Below are positions 32,251 through 59,116 of a stretch of DNA of 64,000 nucleotides, piece after piece. The DNA is from Trichoplax sp. H2. Lineage: Eukaryota. Positions within the stretch are counted from its first letter, which is position 1. Every line of letters begins with the position of its first letter. The stretch is from positions 434,001 to 498,000 of the forward strand of contig NOWV01000011.1 of NCBI GenBank assembly GCA_003344405.1. The letters run 5' to 3'. The position numbers and the translations under genes are program-made. The notes beneath the pieces are model-generated. The model did no database searches, was not told the origin of the DNA, and was given only the letters and a program-made list of their open reading frames with translations.

Positions 32251-34231
32251 AAGCATATATGTGTGTGTACATCGAGCATTAGTATCAATATTGATGATAT
32301 CCCAATAGATTAGAAAATATTATGCGTTGTTAACGAAATACTGAGTGTGCAATACTCTTCGATCTCGTTTTTCTCTTTTTTTTTTCATCTTACTGCCAAT
32401 ATTGTAATATGCTGTCTTATAAATATGCTAGCCATTTATTAGTAAATTCGACGAATTTTTTGAAATTTTAATATTATACTTATTCTTAGTATGAAAGTTT
32501 GGCTACAATATCGTGTTGGTGATAAAACTTTAGCTATTATTAATGATTCAAATAAGATCATGGCTAAATAGAGATGACTCTATTACCAGATTCAGTTGGC
32601 TGACCTGGCTGTTTTTATTCTGTTCCATTTTATTGATCGGATTTATCAAACTGTACAGTCATATAATATGTTGTATATGTTACAATTCCCTCCATTCAAT
32701 TTACGTAGTGCATACGATGCATTTTTTTGCAATTTTAACTTGATAATCCAATTAAGGAAGATTTCTTCTCCTATTAAGAATTCGTTGTCAATCTTTGACG
32801 CAAGCTGCATGACTCGGTAGAGTATTGTAAATTCCGTTGTACTGATTTGCAATACTGCGATGCAAATATGAGTTTTTGTTTTTATAAACTGCTTTAAATT
32901 TTTTTTCCTTTCCATTTCGATTTAACTACAGTATCTATTATTATATTATTTTACTCAACACCTGGCCTGGTCAAGAAAAGATTTCTTGTATTTATCCTTA
33001 GTGATGTGTTATTACCAACAGCTATTATACACAGTGTTATATCGTATTTTATTTCATATATCTTGAATTTCATTGCTCAGTCCGCATATGATTTGTAGTT
33101 AATTACTGCGGACTCTGTTATGACCAGGATTTGCTACGGGAAACTATTTTAGCATATTACTCAAGTAGTTGTATGCAGTATCCTTGCTATGCTATCCTAC
33201 CTCGTCGTGTGTAATGACACCCATGCTAAGGAGCCTACATAATAGGAACATCTATATATTACAGAATTAATAAAAACGTTTTCCTTCCTGATACGAGAAT
33301 AAGGGTACGATGTACTCGTATATGTATAATTTAATCTTGCATTCTTCTTACAGTATACTTGCGATATACCAATATTAACCATAAAGAGAAAATAAGACTA
33401 TTGTCTGTTACAAGGAGTAAAATGTTGTCAATAATTTTAGCTTATATCACACATATATAAAAATTCCTTAAAAATTTGATGGAAATATGAAACAATTAAT
33501 TAATAATAATCCGATGATATAAGAGTTTAATGTAGCAAAATAACATGATAGTATTTTATGCATTGGGAACGTTAAGTAATACATTGCTACACAGTACATC
33601 AAAAATTGAGATAAATTGATAGGAAATTGTTTGTCAATCTAATATAGCCGTAGCTATATCAAAATGACGAAACAGGATAAGGCTGTAAAGTCACGTATTT
33701 ATGAACAATAATCAAGACTTTGCAGTACGTATAATAGCAAGGTGCGTTTTTATATGAGCTTATTCATTACTACATCAGTACTGTAGTGGTTTTCTGTATG
33801 CTATTTTGTAATACTGACGCTTTAATTCGTTGTATTAGTATATATATATACATATTACCGAGTGACATGGGAAATAAACGTAATAAGTTATGGTAATATG
33901 ATAAAAGGCAGTGATTGCCTTACTAAAGAGAGATCAGTCTAATATAAGTTTTACGTAACAAACATGTTTCGCAGTATTTAGCATTGTCAATAACGATAAC
34001 AAATCTTATATCACATTATCATTAACATGATGATACTCAATGAGCATGTTTTATAAGTAAGAGAAGACAATAATATCACGTAATCCGTAGCATATTACTT
34101 TTACTCTCTAAAAGATACTTAAGACTTTCATCATTGTTATGTTTGATAAAGATCTTCAGTTACGCGGTTCATGACTGAGGGTTATTACCAATTGAAGATC
34201 GATGAAGGAAAGTTGGATGTCATTGCAGCAT

Positions 34232-36022
<1,791 letters not shown>

Positions 36023-36720
36023 GGGTCACTATTTGCAATGATATCGAGTACAGAGAGAGAGGGAGAGAGATCGATCCAAGGCAATTATAAATGACGTTGC
36101 CAATATGCAAAGATTTCTACCCCGATGCAATCAGAGTAGATCGTGGAGGATTCAAAAGTCACAAGGTAAGCGATAGGACGTGGAAAAAAAAATGGAGATT
36201 AATACCTTTTCGACGTTTCTACCAACCACCAATTCGATCTGTGTCTTCTTTAGTCACACACACACACAGCACTATACGATCAGGAAGAGAGTCTGGTATA
36301 AAGCTCAAGAAGGTTGTCACCATATAAGTATTAGTATAGTCGTGATCGACTCTTTCCAGTACCGTAGTAGCCAGTGTCAATCTAGGACGACCAGTGAGTT
36401 TGCGCGGTCGACTACTCTACGTTAAAGCCATACTGTACAGTACACTGAGTGGACAGTACTGTACACTGAGTGGATAGTACTGTACAGTACCATGGCGCTA
36501 AGGCCGCTGGCACTACAGTCAATATTGACAAACGTTGTGGCCAAGATAACCGGCAGACGTCAGACGACATGCGAGATCATCGTGCATGCATGGTTGACGT
36601 CTTTTCATACACACACTAGTAGTGGGTGACACTACAACTGGATTGGACGTGTCTTGTTCAGTACGGTACACTGACACGACTGACGTCATCTTGGTAGAGT
36701 ACACTGTACTGTAGTCGTCA
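36023..36720. promoter_or_regulatory. Candidate bidirectional promoter (NKAP / RasGAP)
   Basis: Head-to-head genes, locally raised GC, a GA tract, CRE TGACGTCA (~36681) and a + strand donor AAG|GTAAGC (~36166). Confidence 0.4.
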
Positions 36721-38179
36721 TTGACTTGACCGACTCACTTCATCCACCGTGGTACGCCCCCGATGGAAGACCGTATGGGTGGGTACAGTGCATTGTACAG
36801 GATACTGTCCTACGCTTTACTATGGAATGCAAGTGTACACTGTAAAAGCGTACTGTAGTATACGGCAGACGACTCACCCTGCGACAGTCATCAAGTAGAC
36901 GCTTCACCTGTGTGGATGCTTCAATGACAACCACTACCACAGCTATAGTAGAACCTTGACACAACCTTTCCACTGGCATTTATTATTATTCTCACAGACT
37001 AAGCACTGACGATCATTGAACATTTTTCACTGATGGCCATCTTTGAATGGTAGATCGTCTTTGAAGTAGCAAGAATAATCCATTGCTTGCAGTCCACATG
37101 GCCAAGTAATATCGTAGTTGTATAGCCGTTACGGAATTGTCGATGACTATTGAGTCCTACTTATTATCATCGAGTACTGCGGTTAACTTCCGTTGAAGAA
37201 TGAGAAAATAATTCAATAAAACCACTGTATATCATTTTCATTTCAGGTGTTAAGAAGCAAAGGCGACATATTGCTTTCTGGACTTCCGTTGCATTGGATA
37301 GCCGTGTTGACGATATAAAATTGAAGATACAGAAAGACATTTTCAGACGTTTTCAATTTTATCCATCTATCCTATAGGATTATTGCATATACTTAGACTT
37401 ATTGCAGTAGGATTATCTCCAAGTGTGCGTATCGATTGCTTTCCATTTTGGACACTGCGTTCACCAAAGTGGTCGAATACTGTCTGTAATCGACCGACCG
37501 ACCGTTCAACAAGCTTGATGCTTTTAGTGGCCAATTTTTTTTTCTCTCCCCCCAATCCTTTCCCTGTGTTGGTTAACCTAAACGCGTCTTGGCTTCCACC
37601 TGGCTGCTGATCTTAACCTTCTTATCTGGATAGAACATGACAGCCGGCTAATCAACCCAAATAAAATCGAATAATGTAAGTACCAAAAATAGGCCAATTC
37701 CTCCCATTATATCATACGATTGATATACTGTACAATAGTATTAAACAGATTTCCACTATCTTGCATTATTAATTGATTTTGTTATAATGTACTACCATAA
37801 CTCGTGCAAGCCTCATAAAGTATCAATCGGCTTTGATCCTTCTTTATTATTACTACGATTATGGTTGGAATACTGTATTGAATCTTGTCTCAGCAAGGAA
37901 TGAGATTAATGAAAATTTGATTGGCTACTCACTTCTTGGAATAAATTACTGTATTAGCTGATAGGACTACTACGTACAGTTTACCAATTTCGCATTCTGA
38001 AGCCATTCCTCTGATTTTTACAATTTTATTATCTAACAATGTCCAAAAGGGACTTTCTTGCACGCACAGATTTCCTTTATAATTAATCATAATAATGTTG
38101 AAAATCACATAACCACGTCAGTTTAGGCGCTTTGCTACCACTACTGGATATTATTGGAATTTGAAAGAGTCAACTGGTC

Positions 38180-41100
38180 ATGGAAACGCAAGATTTCGCT
38201 ATCCCTGTTTCCCTACCATCAGGCATGCTTACTACCGATGGCACTAATATCAAATTGTTGATGGACCAAAATGACAACGATAATGTAGCTCTAGAAAACA
38301 TCAGTTTAGAAGAGGATGTTGTCAAGCTAGCTAAAGGTTTGCCCTAATGACATAACCTGTAATTATATGTTGTCAAACGTGAAATTTTTTTTATTGCTAT
38401 TAACAATTGTCACGTAGTGGTGTCGACGTGAATAAAGCCACAGCGTTTGTTGAGCTGGCGTCGACATATGCAAATGACCAAATTTATCAATTTTCTTGCT
38501 CCTCGACACTGCTTTGCAATGATATTTAGAACGCTATTATGGGCCACACTATTTTCACGCAGAAGCAGTGTTCATTTCTTCATTGGTAATAATAACTTAC
38601 ATCAAATAGGCTTTTTTAACCAATGAACTACACTACATATAAGTATATTTTAACTGAAATAGACCTATAAAGTCATATTTTGATCATTTAAATTAAAATA
38701 CCTATAGACAAGTGATTGCGATTAATGGGGTATTGTCGAGCATACTATTTGTCCACCTTATTTTGTCCAAGCAGTACAAGCCATAAATTTTTAAATTGTG
38801 AGCATTCGATTTCATCATAGTTTGGTCAGCAGATGAAAGTATTATAATGCTTTTATGATTATTATTATTTACAGCATGGCTTTCGACTGTAATTCTGAGT
38901 TAGTCGATAGAAGTGAATTAATGAATTACCGTCATTATCATTTTCATTGTCGTCAAGCCAGAGTAATAGAACCTACAGTCTAATAATCGATTGTTATTTC
39001 CCAATATTGTTATTAAATATTGTAAGAAATTCTTCGCGTCACAAAGACTTTTACATACGCTGTAGTCATAAATGCGTGTTTAGACTGTTGCTATTGAACA
39101 TTAAGCTGACGCACTTGTACCCCTTTTTTTATTTCTACAGTACGACAAAGGAAGTTAGATGAAGTTTTAGATTGTAATTGTCGCAAAGCTGTCAGGGTTG
39201 CGACATATCAAAATTAGTCTGGTTAATATACAATATGCTCGCATATTTCTTAAAATGGAAGAGTTTTTATTTACATTTTCGTGGTCAGATGCTATACAGT
39301 GCGGCATTTATTGCACAGTTTCACGAGTTAGGATATAGTACTACCGTCTAATAACCCTAGAATACGAGTACGTTAACATCTAGGAAATAATCAACCCACT
39401 ACAATTGACACAGAGGTACTTGTAAAAGCTATTAGTTCATAAGTGTCGCCGTTCTGTTCGATGTTTAATACCCTTGTTACCTATTACAATTATAATCTCG
39501 CGGCCGCAGTATTAAATTATTAACTATCTCATTTTATGCTTGCCAATGATTTACTGTGATGAAACGCTGATCGTTTAATACGTACAGTATAAGTAAGCTT
39601 AACAAGAGTTTTTTGTGCAGTATTGATAGTGGACAATCAAATACTTTGAATATAGAAATGCTTTTCGATTTCCCTATACAATTAGCAACCGACGTGAATA
39701 TTTCTTTATTTTATTCCTAAGGATAGACGTCTGTCGTATTTTATTATTATTTACGAATTATTAATTGTCTAGAAAAATCATGAAAAATATTCGTACTACA
39801 TTAATGCAACATACAGTCTACTGGAAATTTCTACCGGTTGAATTTTTAGTAGTCTGTGACTGCACGGTATCTGCATATGATAGGTTTTCTTTCCGCTTGG
39901 ATTTCACTATTTACTGAGCACAGTGAGCAGTTTACAGCTAAGACTTTGATATCAAGACTGATTCAATTTTGCACGCGCCTTGCTGCAGAATTTGATTTCA
40001 GATATTGCGGGACCCATCTCATGAATCATATGATCCCGAAGTTGGGAAACTATTTCAAGTATAGTACGATACCGCGCGTCGAGGGACTCCAAAAATGGAG
40101 TCTCTGGTACATTCGTGTACGATACTATGACATTGAATTTTGCATGTTTTCTCATCAGTTTTTGCAACTGTACCAGTATTTACGATATATTTCTGTTCCT
40201 AAAGATAAAAGTTAAAATTATGTTATATTAAAAATATTAACCTGTTAACCGTTATTTCGCAAAAATGTAATAACACATGAGAATATTTGAATTAAATAAT
40301 TACCATGCGTAAAAATTTTCGCTTGCTTCGATTGAAATTCGATACCACATACTGTACGGGATCAACTTCTATAGATAAATAATGTCCTTCTTACACGAAT
40401 ATTCTTATAAAATGAATTAATCAGGTAATGTGAATTCTTTGTTTAATATAGCTCGTCGAGAAATTCGGAATAACATTTCTAAACAAAGTGTAATCAATTT
40501 TCACCTTAAGCAACATATCAGCAACTACGATACTTATATTGGTTTACTTGTCAGGCATAATCTTTGCTTAAAGGTAACTATTTTTGTATTACCTTACACG
40601 TATAATTTATGATATTATTATTACACCGTACAACGCTATACGCATACTATGTCTAGAATAGAATTATTTACGGCTTATTTCTGAAACTTGTGCCAATAAT
40701 ATTACAAGCAGAATAGGACTCTTAAAATTGACGGAAATACCAATTGTTGAGAATATTAATTTGCTGTATATACCATTCGATATTCTTTCAACGTAGTGAC
40801 ATTATATCTATTTAATCTTACAAGCCTTCATTTATAGTAATGCACACTTTCAAGTACTTTAGATCGAGACTCCATCCGTTTATAATATTATTACCAAAAG
40901 ATCGTTGACTTCTAGCATACGTATGTCGCTATCGAAATTCATCCAAAGCATAAATGATATGAATTTTTGCACAGATCCTTAGTTTAAAATACGACAACAC
41001 TGATTACCTTATCCATTATTAATTATATTACCGGTGTCGTATAGAATTTTTTGTATTCTCGAAAGTAAAAATAATTCATTGTATCCTTATTAAAAAGAAT

Positions 41101-44100
41101 TATTAATTAATTAAATGATGTATTTGAATGGTAGAAGTTGCTTTTATGATAACGTTAACTTAATGTATCAACATAGAATATTATATTATCGTGCTCAATA
41201 TTTAATAACACCTTGAATGCAGGATACCGTACTTAACGAGAGTGTATAATAATTGAATCACTTTTACGAAAATCCGGCAATATCTACAAGGAAAATATAG
41301 TACCGTCTATGGAACGATATACAGTACTTTTATCTTATTCTTGTATAGACACGGATACGAGATCAAGGAGGCCATTGTAATTGTTACTTTCTAAATTTTT
41401 TGTACAAGCGATACTACAAGTACACTATTGCAGACGTGCACAGTACTGTGACTACCGTCCGTGGACTATAATTAATTCATCGTAATTCATTACTGAATTA
41501 GTGATACACTAGATCCACACTGGACTTAGCCTATGATTAACACCTACGTGCTTATACTCGTACTATACTTTGTAGCATATTGGTTACAATTGCAATTATA
41601 TCCGTAATATTTTAATGTAGTACATTAAAGTAAAATACGGTGTTTTAAATTCTTGTGAAGATATTGTGCATTTTAAAGTAACATACTGCTCAGTACTGTA
41701 CAATATTGCTTCGAAAACGACATAGTGACATATAAAGGGCGTACATACATTTTACTAAATATTTTACTCCTTTATAATTAGATAGATATACGAGTACACT
41801 ATTATAAAAATTGAAATTGTTATTGTAGTTAAGATTTAATTAAATAATATCATTATATGATCAAATTTAAAAAAGTAATCTTAAAATGAGAACTCTTCCT
41901 TGCATATCGTGAGGGATTACAGGTCAATAGAAATATGAACTTCTACTTGTGTTAAGATCGAATAAATTATAGCATATTAATGTAAATACTACGTCAATGG
42001 TACAGTACAGTATACGTAATTAATAATACCGCAAGGAGATAGCGCACCGCATAAGAAATATAGAATGTAATTATCATTCTAGCTGTGTTTATTCTGAATT
42101 GGTGCTGTTTAATTCTGTCATCAAATGTTGTAATTAATTATTTTATTGGTAACTATTATGGATTTTTGATAATGCATCATCTCAGGATGCCGCCGACCGA
42201 TTGGACCGTCTTGACGCAGTAGAGCCACGATATCTAGGTAAAAACGTTGAATATGCTGATAGTTGCACTGTAATTTTTAATGAAGTCATAATTGGTACTA
42301 CAGCATTGTAGCGTTTACGTTATACGTAGGTGTCGATAATTGTGGTTATGATCAGTACAAATAATGAACTAATATATCGACCTACTATTGCGTTAATTGT
42401 ATTGTCGATGCTACCACATAAAACTAGATAGGTCAGCTAGTTGTTCTACTCATTGTAATGTATATATTTTCGTAATAGACATGCCCCTATACCCCTAGTT
42501 TACATTTTTTTAGCCATACGATGTTACATTCCTACATTTAAAACGGCAAAGATCGAACGGAGTATAATAATACTCTTTCGTTAAAATAGCGAATTACAAT
42601 TGTATAGCCTATATTGTATTTCACATGATGTGGCTATCAGTTTACAATGGTTTAAGGATGCTGGCTTACGACTGTTAAACTTCAGACTGTAAATGGATAA
42701 TTGATCGTTAGCTGGCATAGAGCTACTACCACGTATTGGTGAAGTAGTAGTGGCAACTGTTATACAGTCATTAATGGGTAGCACAAATTGACTCAAACGT
42801 AATCGCATCTTAACAAAATGATTATACTGTTATAATTAATGCAATGCAATGCAAGCGGTTTCTATAGCTCTCGAATCATTCAGTAATCATTGAGTATACA
42901 TAATCAAGTTGATATTTCATTGAATAATAGAATCCATACTGTAAGTTACGATCAATTCAATTGGCCAGGAAACTGTATTAATCGAACTTGTGCCTTTACT
43001 TCATTCTGATGTTTAAGATTGACTAAATAATAACAATTACTACTGAGTTATTCTAAGGTTCGATTTGACTGATTCCATGTGATTTAAACTGCATATGATG
43101 CGTTACTGTCTTGCAGCTTGTGTTATCATGAATTCATGATTCATAAGTAGCTTAGGCGACTTTTATAAATTATTCTAATTGGCCTAAAAATACGCAATTG
43201 TGATACGAGTTATATATTTTAGAACTGCATATTATCTGAATGTAATTGAGATCGATTTGGATCAAAGCAGGGCTCCAGCTAGCTCGTATTTTTATTTCTT
43301 GTGAAAGAATACCTGCTTGAAGATACAATACATTATAATGCGTTTCTAAAAACATAGTGCTAGTGATTTGTCGTACGTCATAAAATATGAATACATTATT
43401 CAGATACAAGGAGGTATTTTAATTTACTATGCTATTTCGACACTTTGTATACTTAGAAACGTGTTTCCAGAGCTGATACCGTACTCAACGTAATTTACAT
43501 CGCATGCTTATTTTTTAATTAGTATCAGAAACTGTATCCTGTATTGGCTAAAATGTGAACTGTATTTCTTGTCTTAGATAGAACGTTATGTACATATTCA
43601 AACTTTTTACTATTTACTGTAAACTGACCCATTTTTGTCATGTAATTTTAAATAATAATCTTTGAAATTTTACTCTGAATTTTTATTCGACTTCCTTTAC
43701 TTTAACCTATAGCGGTCCAAAAATGGCTGTTTTGATTAAACTCTTTGTCTTTATACTGTAAAATTATTTGCTAACATTTTACAATATCTTTTAGCAATAG
43801 AACCCTGTAGTTTTCAAAGAATATATCTTCTCGGTTACACCTGGTAACCTCTTACGAGTTTTTCATTTAATCAATAACTTCATTACTAACAGACCGCGAC
43901 AGCAATAGAAGGGGGGCTAGTGCATTTACGTAGTGTTCTGACGTTTTATTTGATATGATATTCCATTGTTTTAATGATCGATTGCTCCTGTTTTAGGGCC
44001 TCTGATAAATGATATCAAAGAAAAGGTTAGTAAATAGTATTGAATAATTTGTTTCTCTTCATTTTATTATTGGATTCTGATAATGGATTTCCGATAATTC

Positions 44101-47100
44101 TTTGGCGCCCTCAGTGCAATAGCGTTGTTGTTTACATTACCATTAATATTATTTTAGCATATGCTTTGATCTAGGTGTTATACAATCATAGTTAAGATGC
44201 ATAGTGTGTTTAAAAAGTTGTCATTTACATATTACTTTATACGTATGCATACTGTATCACTATGTACATTACATTGTTTTGGTATTTCTTCCTTTTTTAG
44301 TACCATACTGTAGTTATGATTGTACTTGAAAGCAAAATTTTGTATATAGCAGTTTAGAGTTATATTTGTCAATTGCTAAATAGTTTACGGGTAAGTTACT
44401 GGAATACTCATCGATATCTAAACTTATAATGAATGTAAATCAATATTTTTTTAATAGCATTTCAGTAACTTACTTCATTTACTGCAAACTACACCATTTT
44501 ATATTGCCTGTCTAACACGCTTGGTATCACTAATGGAGATTGACAGTAAGTAGCTGCCTAATTTTGGGTGATTTTTGCCGGTTGTACAGTACAAGCTACT
44601 AGATAAATATTTTACAGATCGGGATTTAATAGGTTGATTAACCTGTACCTTATAATTTATTTTATATTTGTAGATTTACTTCACTTTGTCATGTTTACAT
44701 TATTCGGAAATCAAAACAACTCTAGAGAGGAGCATCTTCTCTTATTAGTGTTTGAGGTAATATTAAAGAAACAAGCTTACATTTTCGACATAGTTAAATC
44801 GTATTGTTTTGATGTACGTAATGCAGGATAAAAAAGTTTTAAATCTCCTACTTATGCTTATGCCGGTTTACAACTTACAGAAAGCTTTCAAATTGGAATT
44901 TGAAGAAGCTGAAGAATGGGGAAGTCTGTTACGAGCAAACAATGCCTTATCACGTATGATGACAACATACACAAAGTAAGGAGAAGCAGCCATTTTTGTA
45001 TTATTTGTAGTAAGGCGTCAAATATTCCGTTAAGTGTATAAGGTGCAGGCGCAAAAAGAGTAATAGATCCTAACCAGTGCTCTAACTGTTTTGTTCTATT
45101 CTAATTTGCATATGTGTATAAACATTCCAGACGAAAATTAGGCAAAGATTATCTAATAAGTACTCTCGCGCAAGTTATGAACGATGTTATTTCAGATCCG
45201 GATTTGGACTTAGAGATTGATCCTCTAAAGGTAAGTTTGACTTTTTAACTTTTAATTGCATTTTATGTATGAAATTTAATGCTTGTTAATTAAAAAGTGT
45301 ATCGTACGAAATTTAATCATCAGATTTATAAAACACTGGAAATAGCAGAGAACTTGGTTTCAACGGAAGAGGTGTGCATTCTATTGCTTACATGATTTTT
45401 CCCTTTGATTATTTAGTGCCGAAAGAGCGCACAAAATGGAATATTTGATGTATTTTACTTTGTCATGATAGGCTTTATCATCTGAGGAAGTAGCGTCTCG
45501 TGCTCGAAAAAATATCTTTGGTTATTATTATTGAAGCATATTGCTTAACTGATTTGCTTTTACCTTGTTCATTGTCGTATACTATATTCCTTAACCGTGT
45601 ATACATATATCAAAATTGGAAGATATTTCTCTGCGATTTATGAACTGTATAATAGCGTCTATTGATAGAATACCATACGGTATAAGGTGGCTATGCAAAT
45701 CTATAAAATACTCCATTAAAGTAAGATAATAAAGTTTGATCTTTGATAAAATTATACCTTAATACATTTTTTATAGTAGTCAGCACTTATTACATTGAAA
45801 GTAATTATTATATAGGAGAATTTTCCAAGTGCCTCTCCTCAAATCATAACATCGTTAATTGGGAGCTTCTTCTTTTTAAGATTTGTTAATCCTGCCGTCG
45901 TTACTCCTAAAGGTTTGCTATTTTAATCTTCTTTATCAAAAATTTATTTATATATAATCATTTTGTTCCTTTTAGCTTATGGAATAACTACGGAACCGAT
46001 ATCTCCGAAAACCACTCGAAATTTAACTCTGGTACGAACATTACTTCGCCTTTAACTAGTAACTGAAATTGTTACAATTATTTATCATTTCGATATCGTA
46101 TTCTAGATCGCCAAAATTTTGAAATGCTTAGTTCACGCTACCACAGTTAAAGAGTCGTGTATGTATCCCTTACAATCTTTTATTGATCAGCACCATGATC
46201 CTTTAAAGGTACGGTATATTTTTACCTTACATCTTTCGATTCATTATTAACTTCCTTTTGGAAGTGGTTTTAAGGTAAAATCTAAATTTGATAGGTATTC
46301 CTGGATCAGTTATGCGACGTTCGAAATTTTCATGACAACATTGAAGTACGCTTCGATAATAGATATAAGCACCTTTCAATTTAATGTATTTACGTCTTCT
46401 CAAGTTATTGATTCTGATCTTCAAATTAGATGGAACAATATCTATCTCTTTCTCAAGATATTATTGTAAATATAAGACTGAGCGAATTGTACGACCTACA
46501 TAACTTACTGATATCTTATCGATCAAATCTGGTAATTACCTCATGCATGTTAATTATTTAAATCTAAATAATTATATTATATTGATTTTAAATTATCTAC
46601 AACACATATCATTACCACAACATGTTTAGTTGTATGAAAATTATTTAATTTACTTCAGATGGATGGAGCAAATGATCGGTTAGGTTGTATATTGACTGAT
46701 CTCGGGTCGGCCTCAAAATTAGATCCGACTAATGACGAAATTATTTCCATAAAATTAAGTAGCCGTTGGGAACCTTTTACAGGTATTGCGTATTCGGGTA
46801 TGCCAACAATAAACGGCAGTTTTATAATGCTATGATATAAATTGCTAGCCGTAACTAAATAGCTGTTGATATAATCTCAATTCATAACAGATATAAAGAG
46901 AATTACGAAAATGTATTCAGAAAATGATATTAAAAATTTTGGGATTGCAAAAGAGAAGTTAAAGGATGTCCTATTGAAATTTTTTACAGAGGTGCGCTAC
47001 AACGCATGTACGATTCCTAACTTTCATTGAAGCAATTAAAAGCTTCATTGTGCTACGTAATTCATGCTCAAGTTGATTAACGTAATTACCGTAATTAATC

Positions 47101-48497
47101 GATTAACTATACGCCTATAATGCAACAACTAAATGTGTAATTAACATGTTAACTATGGTATTATTTATACGTCTTGTGTCAAGGTTCCTGAAAGTTTTAA
47201 CAAATCTACTTTAGAAGATGCTATCTATACAGTTATAAATAGCAAAATTCCGGATATGGCTCAATTAGCAAGCCCTTTGCTTGAAGACATTCATAGATCA
47301 CGCCAAGAACATATTGAACATCCGTTATATTCTAACCAGTATTTTCATCAAATTAAGGAGGTATAATTCATTTGCCAGATTAAATACCTGCTATTTGTTG
47401 ATCTGTACCGTCTGTATCTCGACTTAATCAAGAAGGCTTATTTAAACGCTGTAATTATTTTCTGGTCGTACTAGGAATTAAAGGTAATGCTATTGCAAGA
47501 ACAATGCGTAGATTTTGAAGTAACAATTTTGAGAGATGTTTATCAGGTTTGACTCTAGCCTTAATTGCTTAGATGTTCGATTACAATTGATTCTATTATG
47601 TCGTCTAGACCTTTATAATATTAAAATAACATTTAGTGTATTAATAGAGTAATTATTGATTTAATTCCATATGTAGTCGTTATGTGAGCACGGAAGCTTT
47701 CTGAAGGAACAGCTCAATAGTTACAAAGGTATATTTATTAACAATTATTAATCATTGTTGAAATATAAAAATTTTTCTATTGATCACAGAGAACAATTTG
47801 CATAGATGTGATAATATAGATCTATGTTATTATATATTTATTATTATAGAGTATTTACAAAATACAAGAAAAGCTGTTGTGAGCAAGGTTTCTGAATGGT
47901 TCTTACAATGACGATTTTCGTATTGAGTTATATGCTAACTGTAATATTCCTCGGTAAATATTTAGTTTAATCCGTATGGAAAAGATGAAAATTATCAAAA
48001 TGAAAATTATATCAGTCCTTATCGCTGTTCGCATTTGCAATTGTTAAAATACAGAATTATTGTCGACATTGCACATGAAGATATGTACGTATTTTCTACA
48101 TTGGACGTGATTTTAAGTAATTTACGTTGTTAGCTTATTTTCATATGAACTGTTACATTTTAACAGAAAAAATAATGGCTCTGACCTCTGGTATCTATTT
48201 TCTTCGCCAAGTCCTGGCCATTTTATAATTACTTTATTAGACGAAGGTAATAACAATATTCTAATTTATATTGTAAATTTGTATTTATCATCAGCTAGTT
48301 GTGTGTTGACCAAGTGTCTTATTTGGAAAAATATTAAAGTACGTTTCAGTTTATTAGCATTTAAAGACGCTTTAATATATGATTTCAGTAGATTTATGAG
48401 AGCAATTTTCTGTTACAATCTAGCCCAATCTAAAAATCTCATTCAGATTAGCGTTACTCTAGAAGAATTACTGGAACTGCTTTATATAAGAAATTCG
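38180..48497 (+). CDS. Sar1/Gap1 (GAPA-like, IQGAP-related) RasGAP with RasGAP and RasGAP_C domains, >20 exons; last exon unresolved (candidate 48658-48684)
   Basis: Exons 38180-38336, 40452-40573, 42186-42237, 43997-44025, 44458-44545, then a dense series to 48497. Translation includes [167 protein letters not shown] and [11 protein letters not shown]. Confidence 0.88.
45512..45604 (+). other. U12-type (minor spliceosome) AT-AC intron, 93 nt
   Basis: 5' site ATATCTTT, branch site TTCCTTAAC (45587-45595), 3' end GTATAC. Removal gives the in-frame [16 protein letters not shown]. Confidence 0.88.
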
Positions 48498-51400
48498 GTA
48501 GGTTGCATTACCTTCTACCTTGCATTTTTTAACTTTATAACGTCATACATTTGCAGTCAATATTATTTGCATGGGGTCAGATAAATACTGTTTGTTATTC
48601 GTATGCGTATATTTTAATTCTGTTATTTTAATTATCCATATATTTGTTTCATTGTAGTCATGTATAAGAAATGAGTTTTCATGAGGCTCTCATTTAGCTA
48701 TGAATGACATTCGAGATCGCCAAAAATTATTTATAATTTGTAATTATCTTTTGTAATCGATATGAGATAACACCAATAATTATACAATAACTAATGTATA
48801 TCACTCCGTGAGCTGACTGTGTGTGATGCAGACGCCTGAGATCGCTACGTCTTGTAATTAATTGAAAACGGGGTAGTAAATAAGATGGGATGTTGATTAT
48901 CATTATAGACTTTTATAGAAGTCTATACGAGTTTACAGGATTTTTATCACGTCATAGGCATACTGTGCCTTATATCAGTATTGATAGCATACATTTATAT
49001 CATTTTTCATAACATTTCTATAGGGTACGGCTGATATCTTAGTAATTCGAATACAAATTTAATGATCTTGGTTAACACTTAAGTGTAATAGTTCACTCTT
49101 ACATGACTTAGTGAAAGTAGCAAATAGGTGGCATATTATCATCGACGAAAAATTATGCTACATATTAGAAGGAAGACTGATGTTAGTTTGTCAGGGTTGT
49201 AACTAACTGTAAATATAGCCATTTCTAAAAAATCCATGCGAACAAATTAGTATTTTCAATCGTTTTATGAAAGTCATTATGGTACTAACCTTCAATGTAT
49301 TTGAATACTAATAATTATTTATCACTTTTTTAATGAACAACCTCCTATGAATTATTACTGTCTATCGCTTTCTATAGGATAGTTTTATTAATTATGAAAA
49401 TTGTTTTTTAAGTAATAGCATTGAATAGTAGCCTTTGCAATCTGCCAGGGAGTAATAGAGCAGCGATAATAACATACAAAAATTGAGCGATTATTAATAA
49501 TGAATAGTGGTAATGAACTTTATTATCTTTAATCTTTTATACCCTGGCCCTTCCAATATACGCTTTGTTTACATGAAAACATGCAAAATCCAAGCTATTA
49601 AAAATACTGTTACGAGAAACAATTGAGCTACAAAAATACTGTAATTTTAATGAATGAATCTTTCGAACTGTCTGAGATATTTCGTTTGCTTAGTGTACTA
49701 ATGATAGCTATGATTTTCATTACGGGTTGTCTTAAAGCAATTTTGATTACTATGTAAACCGTTAAATTATCTAAGCTACTGTCTATCAGCTTGGGGTAAA
49801 TTATGGCTGTCTAGAGACATTGAAAAAAAAAAAGTCCTTTTACTCTATTGTTAATACTTGCATTAAAAATGTCAAGTCCACCGAGATTGCCTGTGCAAAA
49901 TGCTATTGTGATACATTATATTTGCACACAAAAATAGTTACAATACCTTATTTTAAAGAAATAATGGAGAGGAAGGAAAGGAAATGTGTTGCTACTGTTT
50001 GAATGTAAGCAAGAATGAAATACGACAAAGGAAATAGGACAGACAATTTTGTTTAGGTTATTAAAGTAATAAAAAGACATTTCTTGGGGATAGGTAAAGT
50101 ATTTTCAAGTAGGCAGAATTTGTTTTATAAATATAGGGAATTATATTGAATTCCGATAATAGACTTTTATTTCTAGCATAAAAGAAATGTATATGCTTCT
50201 CATGCATTTTGTCACACAACAATAACAGTATAATCGTACGATAATCATGTCAATGCAAGGCTCTCGACGTAAAAGAAAACCTGCATAAAGCGCCCATTAA
50301 ATATATTCAATTTTGAACTATCGTTCTACATCAGTCTAGTTGTTCATGGCTGTGATGACGATGTGACGATGTTGTGTTTATTCTTCGGATAGTGAAAAAA
50401 TTGATGGCTTGTACTTACCATGAATCGGATTTTTGTTTCTTAACATATCGACTTAAGATGGACAGTATTTTGATAGCGTTATAAGTTTTGTGCTAGGCTT
50501 AGTTGGTTGAGATTTCGATTACAGTATTGGAGGAAGTTAAATGGTGTAAAAAGAGGAACATTGCAGGTTTAAGGTACTTAATGCATATAATGTGTACGGA
50601 TTTTATATCTAAACAAGAGTTATGAGGTACGGCGTAAGTGATTTAAAATGTTGTCTTTGACGTTTTTCAAAGTCTCATCAAGTTAATTTTTTTTGCTTTA
50701 GACGTATGAGTATTAGCTACACACAATATGTGCGTATGTATCCACAACAGAACTGCTAATTTGTGACTGCCTCATTTCAACTGTTTTTACGCCACAAATT
50801 ACAGTATATTGATTTTTAATGATGTATTCTAGTAGTTTAAAAGTTGCAAATTATTACTGACAGAGTTCTAATTTCACAAACAATTGATAAATTTATCAAT
50901 CTTCGTGCTGTGCTACTTGGGTATGCAGTAATATCATTTGGTTATGTGTTTTTCGTTATCAATTTTACGTAAAGTGGATCCATTAAATTACTATTAAATT
51001 CTCTATCCTTTAAATTCGTATCACGTCACGCAAAGTTAAACTGTATAGGTCGTATTAATTTACCAGTAGGGGAAGTTTTTACTCATCACAATTAGCGCGA
51101 GCAATTTTCGTTGCTTCTGTTCGATTTTACTGTGACTGTAATTACGTTCGCACTGTATACTTGGGAATGATACTTTCATTTGATTCTCTCGTATTAATGC
51201 CATAGTTGTACTAGACTTGTGATTTTATGCGTATATCGATTGACCGTTTTATTCATTAACAATCCGAAATATTACTAGCTTCATAATCTATTGGCGATGA
51301 TGCAAAAACTGCGGATACAGTAGTGTAATTGCTCTATTGCATGCAGTACAATGATTTCCCTTTAATTAAAGGGCGTTAGTGCGTTTTTAGCAAGCTTACG

Positions 51401-54400
51401 GTACCGATCTGCAATATTAGTACATCTACTACTGTATACTATAATATTATAATGTATTCCCTGTACAGGACAGCAGAGACCTCTTACTCGTATGCCAGAA
51501 TATTTTGAACAGTACTGTACGTGTAAGTCTGTGAGCTAAACATTACAGTACAGTAAGGTATGTAGTTCAATTGCTATAGTACTGCACTGTATGGACAGTA
51601 TGCTGCAAAACCAGGATATAATATAATAGTACAGCAATTATGCTACTGATTGTTTTCTTTCAAGGTAAAAAGCTAGCAGACATCATACTGCACTCAAGTC
51701 GGCGGACTGCTGGCGATACATCATGAATTCATGATTCATGATTAAATAATGTAATAATAATTATTAATGATAATACGGTACTGTTGCAGTGTTTTCTGAA
51801 TAGCATATACATACAGTACACTAAGTTCGGCTGGTATACAGTACTCAGTAGAGTAAAGTAATTAGTAAATACTCTGTATAATTGTACGTATACATATACT
51901 GTATAGTGTACTTTATGCTATACTCTATACCAGAGTCACGGAATAGGGTATTTAGTATTACTTACAACTCTTTGACAATTGTAACAGCAAAAATTATTTA
52001 AAAAACCGATACTTTTCATTCCATCGGTACAGTGGTCAACGACGTTGTATTGTAGTAAAACACTGACTTGGCTTCGACTCATGATAGCAGTAGCAAGCGA
52101 TGTGAGCTGACGAGCAGAGGCTAAATCCACAGCTGATACTGATACAGCAGTTGCACAGTGTAAAATGCACACCTGACGCTCCTCGTACTACAGTACAACG
52201 CAGTACTGTATTTATTATAATATTATTTGGGTTATTTCATCTCTATTGCACATACAGTACAGTAATAGTGATTTGGCTAGTTCGAACTTCTGCAGTTTTT
52301 ATGCAGTAGTAATTCATAACTTTGGGGAAAAAATAATATTACTACCGTATATGTATATTATATATGAATGGCGAATATTTAATGAATCATTACTGCTTTA
52401 CAAGATACAATGCTGTACTAGTATTCATGGGAGCTGATTGATACGTTTTGAATGCTCGCGATCTCGAGTCCGGATGATGCAATATAACCTACCATAACAT
52501 TTTATTTTGATGTTTTTTTATGTACAGTATATGCGCGCTTTTGTTCTTGTTTACCTATTGTGAACTGCTAAAAGAGTCCATCGATGAAAGAGTCTGGTCA
52601 ATTTCATTGTAATATCATTACTGTATGATTTTAATAATAGCGGGTAAACTCTACTGTACTTGTACAGTATGGTGTATAGTGTACGGTACTAGTCATAAAG
52701 GATATCTTGCAAGGTAAATGTATAGTAAGCACGTAGACTGCATTCTTTACTCGGGCAATCATCTTTATAATGAAAATATAACGTCATTTAATTTTAACCT
52801 TAGCATTTAGCGTTTAGTATTTACAGCAACGGTGAGAACTGCAGGGACCCTACTGTACTACTGTACTGTTTATTAGCCTGGTAGTCTCCTGACCGTTTCA
52901 AATATGAAACTGAAATTATCCGAATTTAAAATTAAAATTAAGGCTGCAATACAGTACTGGGTAACTTTATAGTGCAGTTTTGGTGTGAATTCAACGATAT
53001 GCATACATGGACAAGTAGTTTGGTCATTGATGGAGAGTGCTAATGTAAAAAACGCATTTGCTGTAAGTCTAAAATCCAACGACCTGACATGATGACACCA
53101 TTCGCTGTTTTCGGCAGCCATTGTCCTAGAATTGCCATGGAGATTTAGGAAGCCGAACCCAGTGGGAGGAGACTATAGACAAAGCGGCAGTCGTAGGAAA
53201 GGCCTGCCCCGCCTTTTTTTAATTAATGAATTTGAAAAACTTTTTCCTTTATTGTTATTTGCATCACAGTTCATCGTTGCTCAGTGAATTAATTCACACC
53301 GGATGTAGAGGAACAAAGAGAAATAGCGGTGCTATTGCAGTGCTACTGTACCAGTGTAGTACAGTGCTAACTAAAAACTTTTTACTGTACGATATTTGAA
53401 GTTTTGCTTTAGCGTCGTATGGACTGTGGACGTATGGATGCCTATTTTATGACAGTCTTCATCATTCTTGTTCTCAATTCTACAGTATAAGGTTCGCGAT
53501 ATGCTGTACGGTACTGTAGAATGAAGATGAAAATGTACTCTACAGTAATTTAGTAATGCACAGATCTGTATCGTTTTGAGGCAAGTTACTTAGTGTTATT
53601 GTCTGCTACACTACCGCAACGCGCGGCGATATGTACGACTTACGTATCTGGAAAATGGTTGATTAAAATATGCTATTTCTCTAAATTGCAAGCTCAATTC
53701 TTCATGCTTTCTTAACGACCATAATTTACTTTTATGCCAGCCCTATTAGAAATAGAAATATTTATAAGCAGTCTAGTGTGCAAGTTTTGTGTGATACTGT
53801 CATGAGCTACTAGATGTACTTCATTTGGTTGTCTATGATGCTGTAAATATTAACGTTAAGGCCTGGAGTTAGATGTCATAGCTGCATACACTGGTAGTGT
53901 CTCCAAAGCTTAATTTATCGATTTATGGACATATTGTATGACTTGGAGTACTGAATGAATGATAACGAATAGGTTTGGGAACTATCATTATTGTGGGGCT
54001 CCTAAAAACTGATAAAGTAATATAATGACTGACCATTGTCATGCCACGATTGGAGTCAGTTTGCGCTATCATTGATTGATTTAATTAAATTTCTGACATA
54101 AGTATGTGGTAAACTGTATGGCAAATCATATTATTAGGGATTTGTGATCTAGCAATGGTTACTATGATGATATTTTCTTTTTTAATCGACTTATGTGTTC
54201 ATGCTCTTTGATATCTGCTAGTTAAGATGTTGTAGCATAAGCAAGGTTTTAATCAACAGCAATGCCTGAGTTTAGTCATGATCTCCCGTCAAGTAGTTTT
54301 ACAAACAACATTACAATGATCAGTTAGCTTTGGTTGGTGTAATGTAGGTTACAAGGTGACGAGCTCGTAAATTTGATATGTAGCTTATAAGTAATTTGAA

Positions 54401-57234
54401 GCGATACTATAATAAGGAATACGAAAAGGCGATCAATCAACAACGCGTAGAGAGTTAAAACAATTATTATTATAACATTTCTATCATTTTCACCCTTATA
54501 TTTTAGTGAAGAAAATTGAGTAACAATTTTATCCTGAAATAAGCAAAGAAATATGGGTTAATTTAATTTACTGCATTTATTGAACTCCATTCTATTCCTT
54601 ATCATCTGTTTTACAGGTGCTGGATTTGAATGGATTGGTAACTTTGGATGGAAAAAGACTGTTGTTATTTTTATATAAGCATTTTATAAATGAGCCTCAT
54701 AAATGACTATTCTAACAGAAATCTATGAATCATTTTAGTGATGAATTGTTTTTATTAATTGGTCATTGTGATCATTTTATTTTATTATTTTTGCAATTTT
54801 TTAAAATAAGAAAGGATTTTTAGGTATCATCTAGTGGTACTGTTATGTACAGTGCTGTAAAGCCACAATATATATTCAGTAAATAATGTTGCTTGTCAAC
54901 GAATAATGCTTTAAGATTCAAATGGTACTTACAGAGTTCTGGACGATAACAGATTTGCATGCCATTAGAATGTAGAATCTATTTTAAGGATATTATATAT
55001 TGTTGGTAGTGCACCTTACTTCATGTAGCATTTAGCCTTTTATTTGATAGTTATTTTTAAGTTTAGGAAAACAGTTTTTAAACTTTTAGATAAAAATGAT
55101 GTTGTAGTGATGTAGAATCTGATGTGCGAATTTGAAACAAATTCACTACAGGCTAATTCGCGGCTGTTCATTTATTTATTTTACGATTTTCGAAGATTAC
55201 AATATGTACAGCGTACAGTACATAGATGGCAGAAAGTAGAAAGCCTGACTGTAGCAATCAATCCAGTGCGGTAACTGTTTCCTGCACATATGAACACAGA
55301 ATACAGCAGTGCATATAGTAAATTTGCATTTGCATGGCACCGCTAATCATGAAGATGCACTCCTCGATGAACTGTAACAAAGACGGGCTTCATTGTACAT
55401 TACAAGAAGTGCAGATTGCGAAAGTTAATTCCATTTCCATTCCGTACAGAACTTTTGTGCGCTAGACCTATATTGTACGGTACAGTATATAGTATACTAG
55501 TATATTTCTACAGTATAGACAGTTATGGTTAGGGACAGGGCTCTGAGGCACACTTGTACAGTAGTAACAGTGCAGTAATGCTTTAGCAGACGCATCGATC
55601 AGACGATTATTATTTTTATTATGGCATTGTTCCTTTTTTGTTGTATTTTTTAAAAGTTATTTACGATTCTAATTATCACGTATAAACGTTTAATGTACAA
55701 ATCATATTAACTTGGTAATTCCTGATAACTTCACATGCGCGTATCTGAATTATTTTAGATACTATATTAAATTATTATTTTCAATACATCGTCTTGGCAC
55801 TAGTGCTGTTCGTGATATGATTTAGCAGATCAACAAATTGGCAGTACATTTACACTTTTTTACAGTATTGAAATTAATTGACGTTGAATATTATTAACTG
55901 CAGTGTACAGTATTACGATATAACATGATTAATGTACAGTACTCATACAGTACAGTATATTGCAGTATATATACAGTACTGTAGTACAGTAGCTTGTAGA
56001 ATTGGAAATTCAACAATGTATGATTGTAGCTAATTGTACCCATGCTAAAAATGGAACTGTACATTGTGTACATTACTGTAAGCTATTTATTCTAGGTGGT
56101 TGAACATTTCGTTTTTAAGTCCTAAATCATAGATTGAATGTACTTATGAAGATTTCCTTATGCGTTTTAATAATTTCATTTTAATTTCTTGAACATTTTG
56201 GTTGGATCATTACAGTACAGTATTGTACTCAATATGTTTCAAAAGTCCTCCTTGGTGAAGCTAGCCCGCTCATATCTCGCCTAATGTACACTTTTGCAAG
56301 TTGTGTAGTGTGTTCAGTAATGGTGCACAGTGGCACGCGGTACTGGCATACTATTGTACTGTATGTTCTGGTAGTAGTGTATACAGTACAGTTGTATAAC
56401 AACATATCTGCTGAATCACATACTTTACACTGTACAGCAGTAAAGAATTGACTTCATTTATGAACTCACTGTACGAATGTACAGTACAATACACTGTAAA
56501 ATATTATCATGTTACAGTGAATGACCACAGCACTGTACTGTAGAAGTGAATCATGTAGTGTACAATACAGTACCGTACTGTGGTAGGAACACTACAGTAC
56601 ACTAGTGATGTAGCGGGTGAGCCTTACAGTAAGTAGTGTACGTACGTACTGTACTGCGATATTGTGATCATTGATTGATTCCTGCACCCAATTTGGATCT
56701 GTAGTTGTAGGTCCTCCAAATCATACAAACTACGTTCTACTTTTCAAAATGATCAATAAGATAGTTTGGAGAATGAATGTACAACGTACGTAATTTGGAT
56801 ATGCCGTTGTAAAATGGATGAATAAGCTGTCGTAGATGCAGTTGAAGTTGTAAAGGAGAAAAATGCAGACAATACAAGCAAGAGAAAAGAAAAAAGCATT
56901 TCACTCTGGGGGTGATTGATTGGGCAAAGGGGTACTCTTTACTGCTATTGTTGTAGGGTCATTAATAGTTAATGTGAAGATGTGTCAATCAACCCCCCGC
57001 CTGCATGTAAACAAGATTGCACCTGCAGGCAAAATTAATCATCTTGTCAATGAGATTCAATTTCCTCTGGGATCAGAATACCGACAGCTGACTGGCGTTG
57101 GCGGCGGTTGATTTGCCAAGCTGACAAGTGCATTACCCGCCTCCTCGACAATAAACACTTGTCTCGACTGTCATAATTACGGTAGTGACATGAGCAGTAC
57201 GAGTATCAGAAATACGCAACATTAGTTACCGTTA

Positions 57235-58153: not shown

Positions 58154-59116
<963 letters not shown>

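What the first reader, a model, noticed from the sequence alone, without database searches (positions are those of the whole stretch)
38180..48497. Fungal Sar1/Gap1-type RasGAP in an animal genome, with intact arginine finger
Seen: more than 20 small exons assemble into coiled-coil + RasGAP + RasGAP_C with no CH, WW or IQ region upstream (in-frame stop before ATG 38180). Knowledge: motifs such as [42 protein letters not shown] and [10 protein letters not shown] match S. pombe Gap1/Sar1 and filamentous-fungal GapA as I recall them. Animal IQGAPs have Thr in place of the Arg finger, whereas here Arg is kept (CGA 44932-44934). Inference: an ancient, possibly catalytically active Ras regulator that I do not know from human, fly or worm. 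Host-like introns, including a U12 intron, favour vertical retention over contamination or recent transfer. AKILKCLVH departs from the usual AKxLQNLAN, so activity or specificity may have changed.
Basis: partly seen in the sequence, partly recalled or inferred. Interest (0 to 1): 0.78.

Follow-up and report, generated by a model that had tools for sequence, protein, structure and literature searches.

The report
Gap1/Sar1-type RasGAP gene of Trichoplax
This placozoan gene encodes a short, probably active Ras-inactivating enzyme of the kind best known from fission yeast; it was inherited vertically, occurs in sponges, corals and sea anemones, and was not found in bilaterian animals.

Summary
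The window matches Trichoplax sp. H2 and carries an expressed, intact gene for a 754-aa protein: N-terminal long helix, RasGAP domain, RasGAP_C, and no CH, WW or IQ region. RNA contigs from three studies confirm 10 of the 25 coding introns directly, including the AT-AC (U12-type) intron at 45512-45604.

The true last exon lies 6.1 kb downstream at 54617-54706. Both public gene models (H2, and T. adhaerens TRIADDRAFT_55233) are wrong at three places.

The protein keeps the arginine finger (R195), the FLR arginine (R332) and the equivalents of NF1 K1423 and K1436.

A 39-row tree places it in an animal clade with Oscarella, Corticium, Sycon, Nematostella, Actinia, Xenia and Acropora. That clade is sister to choanoflagellates and lies outside both the fungal Gap1 clade and the IQGAP clade. 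Placement inside animal IQGAPs is rejected (AU p=4e-60), and so is a fungal origin (p=0.0012).

It is therefore a vertically inherited holozoan member of the family that recent reviews call fungal. No named bilaterian member appeared. NCBI already annotates it as "GTPase-activating protein". Verdict: new member of a known kind, moderate interest. The third Ras-binding motif is uniquely altered in Trichoplax.

The parts
36940..37105 (+). 5' leader exon (non-coding); the start is the earliest base seen, not a mapped transcription start
   Evidence: RNA contigs of X11 and X15, joint 37105>37247 GT..AG; stops in all frames
37247..37675 (+). 5' leader exon (non-coding)
   Evidence: Contig pieces 37247-37675 in X11 and X15; GTAAGT follows 37675. 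The joint to about 38122 is inferred from depth; it was not shown to me
38180..38336 (+). Coding exon 1 (aa 1-53); the exon itself begins about 38107-38127. The in-frame TGA at 38162-38164 lies inside it
   Evidence: joint 38336>40452
40452..40573 (+). Coding exon 2 (aa 53-93), part of the long N-terminal helix
   Evidence: RNA joints, model
42186..42237 (+). Coding exon 3
   Evidence: RNA joints
43997..44025 (+). Coding exon 4
   Evidence: RNA joints
44458..44545 (+). Coding exon 5
   Evidence: RNA joints
44674..44756 (+). Coding exon 6 ([16 protein letters not shown])
   Evidence: RNA joints
44881..44975 (+). Coding exon 7 with the arginine-finger loop; R195 is CGA at 44932-44934
45131..45230 (+). 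Coding exon 8
   Evidence: RNA joints, Pfam RasGAP
45324..45371 (+). Coding exon 9
   Evidence: RNA joints 45230>45324 and 45371>45472
45472..45511 (+). Coding exon 10
   Evidence: RNA joints
45512..45604 (+). U12-type AT-AC intron (93 nt): donor ATATCTTT, branch site TTCCTTAAC 9 nt before the 3' AC
   Evidence: AT..AC joint in X5, X11, X15; sequence
45605..45720 (+). Coding exon 11 (..IPYGIRW..); its first 14 codons are missing from the public H2 model
45816..45912 (+). Coding exon 12 with the FLR motif; R332 is AGA at 45879-45881
45976..46031 (+). Coding exon 13
   Evidence: GT-AG sites, frame and match to P0001; depth arithmetic
46107..46208 (+). Coding exon 14 with the third RasGAP motif AKILKCLVH (46110-46136); K364 at 46113-46115
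46295..46345 (+). Coding exon 15
46430..46531 (+). Coding exon 16
46659..46782 (+). Coding exon 17
46891..46991 (+). Coding exon 18
47184..47360 (+). Coding exon 19
47475..47546 (+). Coding exon 20 (start of RasGAP_C)
47677..47728 (+). Coding exon 21
47850..47887 (+). Coding exon 22
47966..48084 (+). Coding exon 23
48167..48246 (+). Coding exon 24
48424..48497 (+).
   Evidence: loose ends at 48499 in X5, X11, X15
54617..54706 (+). Coding exon 26: last 29 codons plus TGA, reached across a 6119-nt intron.
   Evidence: The loose-end letters match the window only at 54619; acceptor ttttacag; the product aligns with orthologue and IQGAP C-termini

Best explanation
The locus is the Trichoplax orthologue of the Gap1/Sar1 family of RasGAPs: RasGAP domain plus RasGAP_C, without the CH/WW/IQ modules of IQGAPs. 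It is a vertically inherited holozoan gene, split into 26 coding exons with one U12-type intron, transcribed and fully spliced. The most likely mechanism, inferred from the solved Ras-RasGAP and KRAS-NF1 complexes and from S. pombe Gap1 and Dictyostelium IqgC, is as follows. The helical GAP domain binds the switch regions of a GTP-bound Ras-family GTPase. Arg195 enters the nucleotide pocket as the arginine finger. Arg332 of the FLR motif holds the finger loop and switch II. Lys364 and Lys376 make the salt bridges that NF1 K1423 and K1436 make. GTP hydrolysis is thereby accelerated and Ras is switched off. The long N-terminal helix and the C-terminal RGCt module probably serve oligomerisation or localisation. 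Shown here: gene structure, expression, domains, conserved residues, phylogenetic position. Inferred: GAP activity, and Ras as the substrate.
For: Identity and model. The public proteins P0001 (Trichoplax sp. H2) and P0002 (T. adhaerens) map onto the window exon by exon at about 100%.

RNA. Contigs from X5, X11 and X15 (three studies) show 10 coding-intron joints, including the AT..AC one, and the link from 48497 to 54617. For X15 (contig depth 73.7) the covered bases per bin fit my exon lengths in 9 of the 10 bins I checked that hold only whole exons of the model, e.g. 267/266, 204/204, 353/355, 280/278, 223/221. This is my arithmetic.

Domains. RasGAP 4.8e-49 and RasGAP_C 1.5e-9, nothing else. 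The AlphaFold model has mean pLDDT 76 with a helix at 43-101. Its GAP domain is closest to the IQGAP1 GRD (TM 0.72), p120GAP (0.71-0.73) and NF1 GRD (0.75-0.76). Its C-terminal domain matches the IQGAP2 RGC domain (TM 0.73, rmsd 2.0).

Residues. The finger Arg aligns with NF1 R1276 and with Thr of IQGAP1. FLR aligns with NF1 R1391 and with YYR of IQGAP. K364 and K376 align with NF1 K1423 and K1436 (roles of the NF1 residues from passages of PMC7437355).

Tree (39 rows x 723 columns, LG+C20 PMSF). Animal GAP1-type clade of 11 rows 95/98; with choanoflagellates 15 rows 99/95; fungal clade including S. pombe Gap1 100/100; CH-bearing IQGAP clade 100/100. AU tests: inside animal IQGAPs p=4e-60; grouped with fungi p=0.0012. 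Corticium has both an IQGAP (CH, WW, IQ) and a GAP1-type protein, so the two are paralogues within animals.

Context. Flanking genes are an NKAP-like gene and a Sox gene. The two public proteins come from contigs of 1.0 and 8.2 Mb.
Against: No biochemical evidence exists for any animal member. The Trichoplax branch is long (1.52 changes per column against a median of 0.58).

Its third RasGAP motif is unique. It reads AKILKCLVH, where all 22 other GAP1-type rows have Q at the fifth position and N at the last. Binding strength or GTPase preference may therefore differ.

NF1 K1419 corresponds to Thr here, as in most GAP1-type rows of the alignment.

Fourteen coding-intron joints (exons 11 to 25) were among the 16 rows that one search did not print. 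They rest on GT-AG sites, reading frame, agreement with the public models and depth arithmetic. One bin (46222-46822) shows 314 covered bases against 277 expected.

The structure was predicted from the flawed public model P0001, not from my corrected one.
Confidence: 0.85

Rival explanations
1. It is a truncated IQGAP-type scaffold: a catalytically dead GRD that binds Rho-family GTPases, like Dictyostelium DGAP1/GAPA or animal IQGAPs.
For: The closest solved structures by sequence and fold are the IQGAP1 and IQGAP2 GRDs. The RasGAP-RGCt architecture is shared.
Against: The Arg finger and FLR are kept where IQGAPs have Thr and YYR. The CH-bearing IQGAP clade excludes it at 100/100, and the AU test rejects inclusion at p=4e-60. 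There are no CH/WW/IQ exons.
Confidence: 0.04
2. It is a fungal gene acquired by horizontal transfer, or fungal contamination of the assembly.
For: After a few animal hits, the hit list is dominated by fungi at 32-35% identity. The literature calls the family fungal (PMC12871552, PMC13299636; passages read).
Against: It groups with other animals and choanoflagellates (99/95). A constrained grouping with fungi is rejected (dlnL 67, AU p=0.0012). It has 25 coding introns in AT-rich, host-like sequence, including a U12 intron, and Trichoplax has minor-spliceosome RNAs (PMC2396436 passage). Animal genes flank it. It is present in both Trichoplax assemblies on Mb-scale contigs and is spliced in RNA of three studies.
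Confidence: 0.01
3. It is a Gap1-family member whose target or potency has shifted in placozoans. It might act on another Ras-family GTPase such as Rap, R-Ras or Rheb-like, or act mainly as a Ras-GTP binder, because the helix that contacts switch I is rewritten.
For: The Trichoplax-only motif AKILKCLVH differs from the Q and N shared by the 22 other GAP1-type rows. Trichoplax has one of the four end branches flagged as long in the tree. Dictyostelium IqgC binds Rap and Rab as well as Ras (PMC12871552, passages).
Against: The finger Arg, the FLR Arg and the two interface lysines are kept. The gene is nearly identical between the H1 and H2 placozoan lineages: one residue difference seen in the alignment of the two public models. 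That argues for constraint, not decay.
Confidence: 0.1

Closest known systems
S. pombe Gap1/Sar1 (UniProt P33277) and fungal GapA/Smo1-type RasGAPs (the 'GAP1 family')
   Same: Similar length (754 against 766 aa). Alignable over aa 43-740 at 31% identity. Same RasGAP plus RasGAP_C architecture without CH/IQ. Same finger-loop context LLRAN..SRM.TTYT.R and same FLRFxNPA motif.
   Different: The Trichoplax protein belongs to a separate holozoan branch, not to the fungal clade. Its third motif is altered. Its function is untested in any animal.
Dictyostelium IqgC (a GAP1-related RasGAP acting on RasG); represented here by its Cavenderia orthologue P0129
   Same: Arg finger, an LLR/FLR-type motif and the RasGAP-RGCt layout (PMC12871552 passages).
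   Different: It is amoebozoan and groups with Diphylleia next to the IQGAP clade in my tree. The Cavenderia protein is fused to an ABC transporter.
Animal IQGAP1-3
   Same: Closest solved structures: 3fay at E 1e-31 with P0001 and 1e-46 with the Nematostella orthologue. The RGC domain fold and the C-terminal LL..L.K.F tail are shared.
   Different: IQGAPs are about 1500-1660 aa with CH, WW and IQ modules, have Thr in place of the finger Arg and YYR in place of FLR, and form a separate clade at 100/100.
Machine-annotated orthologues in other non-bilaterian animals and in choanoflagellates (Nematostella, Actinia, Exaiptasia, Xenia, Acropora, Oscarella, Corticium, Sycon; Salpingoeca and Hartaetosiga species)
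   Same: 36-38% identity over the full length with the three orthologues compared (Nematostella, Oscarella, Corticium). Same domains and same catalytic motifs.
   Different: The Trichoplax copy is the most derived in the third motif and has an extra, poorly conserved N-terminal stretch of about 35 residues.

Membership tests
Gap1/Sar1 (GAP1) family of RasGAPs | RasGAP domain followed by RasGAP_C (RGCt), with no CH, WW or IQ modules | tested here: met
   Pfam on P0001 finds only PF00616 and PF03836. tblastn with the first 950 aa of four IQGAPs gives one weak hit, at the start of the GAP region, and none to CH/WW/IQ. The 5' leader has stops in all frames.
Gap1/Sar1 (GAP1) family of RasGAPs | Catalytic arginine finger retained | tested here: met
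   R195 (CGA 44932-44934) aligns with the Arg of all 21 other GAP1-type rows that cover the column, and with NF1 R1276. Animal IQGAPs have Thr there.
Gap1/Sar1 (GAP1) family of RasGAPs | FLR motif (FLRxxxPAxxxP) rather than the YYR of IQGAPs | tested here: met
   [15 protein letters not shown]332 aligns with NF1 R1391.
Gap1/Sar1 (GAP1) family of RasGAPs | Phylogenetic position with Gap1-type proteins, outside the IQGAP clade | tested here: met
   It lies outside the 100/100 IQGAP clade, and forcing it into the animal IQGAPs is rejected at AU p=4e-60. Caveat: without an NF1/RASA outgroup the tree is unrooted. Whether all Gap1-type branches (holozoan, fungal, amoebozoan/Diphylleia) form one clade to the exclusion of IQGAPs is therefore not decided.
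Gap1/Sar1 (GAP1) family of RasGAPs | GAP activity towards Ras | not testable with these tools
   Inferred from conserved residues only.
IQGAP family | N-terminal CH domain, WW and IQ motifs; GRD with Thr in place of the finger Arg and with YYR | tested here: not met
   For comparison, the Corticium IQGAP P0140 has CH, WW, IQ, RasGAP and RasGAP_C.
U12-type (minor spliceosome) intron, AT-AC subtype | 5' ATATCCTT-like donor, TCCTTAAC branch site about 10-15 nt from the 3' end, AC terminus, and splicing seen in RNA | tested here: met
   Donor ATATCTTT (one mismatch; the consensus is recalled, not from a call). TTCCTTAAC ends 9 nt before the AC. The AT..AC joint 45511>45605 is seen in X5, X11 and X15.

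The most novel reading that the evidence does not exclude
The catalytically competent RasGAP-RGCt protein (GAP1 type) is not a fungal and amoebozoan speciality. It would be an ancestral holozoan Ras regulator that survives in choanoflagellates, three sponge lineages (calcareous Sycon, homoscleromorph Oscarella and Corticium), placozoans and anthozoans, and was lost on the stem of Bilateria. Early-branching animals would then run a Ras off-switch that bilaterian model organisms lack. In Trichoplax its Ras-contacting helix has been rewritten, possibly retargeting it.
Probability: 0.5. Interest if true: 0.55.

Novelty: new member of a known kind. Interest (0 to 1): 0.42.

Why it matters
Reviews of 2025-2026 (PMC12871552, PMC13299636) treat the GAP1 family as fungal plus Dictyostelium IqgC, and list six RasGAP groups for humans. 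This locus and its relatives show that an animal branch of the family exists, is expressed, and co-exists with a true IQGAP in at least one sponge. That bears on how the inactive IQGAP GRD arose from an active ancestor. It also adds a Ras regulator to the signalling inventory of non-bilaterian animals that cannot be studied in fly, worm or mouse. Practically, the corrected 754-aa model replaces two faulty public models, which carry a retained intron, miss the 14 codons next to the U12 intron, and have a false C-terminal exon. Those errors would mislead alignments and expression constructs.

Tried and rejected
- The whole genome of the window is not held. I could therefore not look for the Trichoplax IQGAP or Ras genes, nor compare intron positions with orthologues.
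- The first exon query was under the 40-aa minimum. I repeated it with a slightly wider window reference.
- Rfam scan of 36000-52000 at E up to 0.1 found nothing. The well-covered 5' leader is no known RNA family.
- treekit's AU test with the mixture model did not finish in two 300-s calls. I replaced it with my own IQ-TREE constrained searches and AU test under LG+F+G4.
- My first two exon-boundary sets were off by 1-3 bases at several sites and were corrected.
- I first took 45297 as the acceptor of exon 9, which breaks the frame. RNA shows 45324.
- The ends of the unnamed-run contigs at 46587 lead to letters absent from the window; this is unexplained.
- van Dam et al. 2011 (PMC3116619), the RasGAP phylogeny on which the reviews rest, is not held.
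- Earlier scan notes: none for this genome.
- Run X8 gave no joints for this gene; I draw no conclusion from that.
Full report
**What is there.** The window is AT-rich (about 28-42% GC). Four of ten single-exon translations hit Pfam RasGAP on their own. An exon query found a 741-aa public protein named "GTPase-activating protein [Trichoplax sp. H2]" (P0001). P0001 and T. adhaerens TRIADDRAFT_55233 (P0002) map onto the window exon by exon at about 100%. At the one residue where the two differ in alignment A1 (G against D in ..NDRL?CILTDLG), the window agrees with H2. The window is therefore placozoan DNA. P0001 carries RasGAP (E 4.8e-49) and RasGAP_C (1.5e-9) and no other Pfam family.

**Gene model from RNA.** I laid contigs of four public runs on 33000-51000. 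X5, X11 and X15, from three studies, show spliced joints. One joint lies in the 5' leader (37105>37247). Ten are coding introns from 38336>40452 to 45511>45605, and the last of these has AT..AC ends. Sixteen further joints were not printed.

With these joints, GT-AG sites, reading frame and the public models, I built a model of 26 coding exons and 754 aa. For X15, whose transcript contig has depth 73.7, the number of covered bases per bin fits my exon lengths closely: 122/122, 51/52, 30/29, 267/266, 204/204, 353/355, 280/278, 223/221 and 223/221. The exception is bin 46222-46822, at 314 against 277. This is my arithmetic.

Contigs of three runs continue beyond 48497 into 27 letters that occur in the window only at 54619. 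Exon 25 ends AATTCG|gtaggt, and an acceptor ttttacag precedes 54617. The 29 codons of that exon align with the C-termini of the orthologues and even of IQGAPs (..LD/HL..V.LD..R.L.LL.K.F).

**Errors in the public models.** Both public models are wrong in three places.
- They read through part of intron 6, inserting 18 residues. These are absent from all five orthologues in A1 and have pLDDT below 50.
- The H2 model replaces the U12 intron by a GT-AG pair that deletes 14 conserved residues, and the T. adhaerens model skips more.
- Both end in a false exon at 49024-49059.

**Start and upstream.** An in-frame TGA lies 15 nt before the ATG at 38180. It is inside the first coding exon, because X15 covers 38127 but not 38086. 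The spliced leader (36940-37105, 37247-37675, about 38122-38179) has stops in all three frames. Its last joint is inferred from depth, not seen. The next gene upstream (33.2-36.2 kb) is spliced on the minus strand (CT..AC joints) and encodes an NKAP C-terminal domain. The first 950 residues of four IQGAPs find no CH, WW or IQ exon anywhere in the 64 kb. A Sox-type HMG gene lies downstream.

**U12 intron.** Intron 10 (45512-45604) starts ATATCTTT. It carries TTCCTTAAC nine bases before its terminal AC and is removed in RNA of three runs. Minor-spliceosome RNAs have been reported for Trichoplax (PMC2396436, passage read).

**What family.** With the Trichoplax protein as query, the best non-placozoan hits are Oscarella, Nematostella, Actinia, Exaiptasia and Corticium at 35-36% identity. 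Hundreds of fungal proteins follow, several of them named sar1 or RasGAP; 886 hits passed E<=1e-5, of which 120 were listed.

A profile of seven animal sequences was searched against 1.84 billion cluster representatives. It gave 6668 hits at E<=1e-3 and 550 at E<=1e-30, and I saw the best 150. Thirty representatives were looked up for names. The named ones include Xenia, Acropora, Sycon ciliatum, Oscarella pearsei, four choanoflagellates, S. pombe Gap1 (P33277), Diphylleia rotans and several fungi. Many others carry no name.

A FastTree of 174 rows put 11 rows in the animal clade. Of the 24 short representatives left out of that tree, two are animal-like: P0265, which is Oscarella pearsei, and the unnamed P0289.

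A search for longer proteins found only two kinds of hit. One kind is fungal or amoebozoan fusions of the Gap1 type, at 459-528 bits for the named ones. The other is IQGAPs, at 189 bits or less. No long animal Gap1-type form appeared.

**Tree and tests.** I built a careful IQ-TREE of 39 rows x 723 columns under LG+C20 PMSF. It gives these clades:
- Animal Gap1-type clade, 11 rows, support 95/98.
- The same plus four choanoflagellates, 15 rows, 99/95.
- Fungal clade including S. pombe Gap1, 11 rows, 100/100.
- CH-bearing IQGAP clade, 10 rows, 100/100.
- Animal IQGAPs including that of Corticium, 5 rows, 100/100.

Under LG+F+G4, forcing the Trichoplax protein into the animal IQGAPs costs 298 lnL units (AU p=4e-60). 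Forcing it together with the fungi costs 67 units (p=0.0012). The tree is unrooted because I had no NF1/RASA rows. Four end branches, including that of Trichoplax (1.52), are flagged as long.

**Catalytic residues.** The alignment columns and the HMMER alignments to solved chains give this mapping:
- R195 corresponds to NF1 R1276 and to Thr in IQGAP1.
- R332 of FLR corresponds to NF1 R1391 and to YYR in IQGAPs.
- K364 corresponds to NF1 K1423.
- K376 corresponds to NF1 K1436.

According to passages of PMC7437355, R1276 is the catalytic finger. R1391A lowers GAP activity 400-fold. K1423 pairs with Ras D38, and K1423E or K1436E abolishes binding.

The third motif reads AKILKCLVH only in Trichoplax. 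All 22 other Gap1-type rows have Q at the fifth position and N at the last.

**Fold.** AlphaFold2 was run on P0001 with 43 aligned sequences and gave mean pLDDT 76. The model shows a disordered N-terminus (1-41), a 59-residue helix (43-101), a helical GAP domain, a second long helix (576-637) and a beta-rich C-terminal domain. Foldseek ranks the IQGAP1 GRD first (E 8e-15, TM 0.72), followed by IQGAP2, NF1 and p120GAP. The C-terminal domain matches the RGC domains of IQGAP2 and IQGAP3.

**Literature.** PMC12871552 (section 7 and passages read) and PMC13299636 (passages read) describe GAP1 as a family of fungi, with Dictyostelium IqgC as a relative. They note that the family is absent from recent RasGAP reviews, and they cite van Dam et al. 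2011 for the phylogeny. That paper is not held.

I found no text on animal members in these searches: RasGAP+Trichoplax+IQGAP; RasGAP/evolution/Sar1/IQGAP/metazoa; GAP1 family/RasGAP/Nematostella; RasGAP/choanoflagellate/Gap1/IQGAP/fungi; and TRIADDRAFT_55233 (0 papers). PMC3141262 (passages read) lists no such subfamily. PMC4374526 (passages read) concerns NF1 only.

**Verdict.** The gene is an already machine-annotated, vertically inherited holozoan member of the Gap1/Sar1 family. It is probably an active RasGAP, with a placozoan-specific change in one Ras-contact motif.

The absence of named bilaterian members rests on the listed tops of two large searches, so it is strong but not complete evidence. 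Four animal-like clusters remain unnamed: P0241, P0248, P0289 and P0294. P0241 sits as sister to the anthozoans, which is also where a bilaterian sequence would fall.

Noticed in passing
window 50071-50573 and 54617: A transcribed block (X11 contig, depth 63.7) ends at a GT donor at 50573 and is joined to the same acceptor (54617) as the RasGAP's exon 25. No open frame runs through it into the last exon. It may be an alternative, probably non-coding, transcript that starts inside the 6.1-kb last intron.
   Followed up: partly
window 46532-46587: Contigs of X11 and X15 run from exon 16 into the intron up to 46587, then continue for at least 255 letters that are not in the window. This could be an insertion polymorphism in unspliced RNA or a chimeric contig; it is unexplained.
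   Followed up: partly
window 36940-38179: The leader is unusually long (about 650 nt), contains two introns, has the highest G+C of the window (41.6% at 36-38 kb) and has stops in all frames. In X5 the whole stretch 36976-38336 is one unspliced contig at depth 191, above the rest of the gene. There is no Rfam match.
   Followed up: partly
window 33167-36192, minus strand: A spliced gene (four CT..AC joints) whose product carries the NF-kappa-B-activating protein C-terminal domain (Nkap_C, E 5.7e-39). It is divergent from the RasGAP gene.
   Followed up: partly
window 58154-59116, plus strand: An intron-less open frame of 320 codons (stop to stop) with an HMG box (6.5e-28) and a SOXp region (1.1e-9): a Sox-family transcription factor gene.
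   Followed up: partly
P0131-P0133, not in the window: Unnamed proteins of 1478-1751 aa combine CH, several filamin repeats, RasGAP and RasGAP_C. At the finger position, P0131 has Glu and P0133 has Asn. In the tree these two branch at the base of the IQGAP clade.
   Followed up: no
P0144 and P0160, not in the window: The IQGAP of the fungus Basidiobolus and an unnamed CH-bearing relative keep an Arg at the finger position (FLRGNP, IHRGNP) but have YYR, unlike animal IQGAPs, which have Thr.
   Followed up: no
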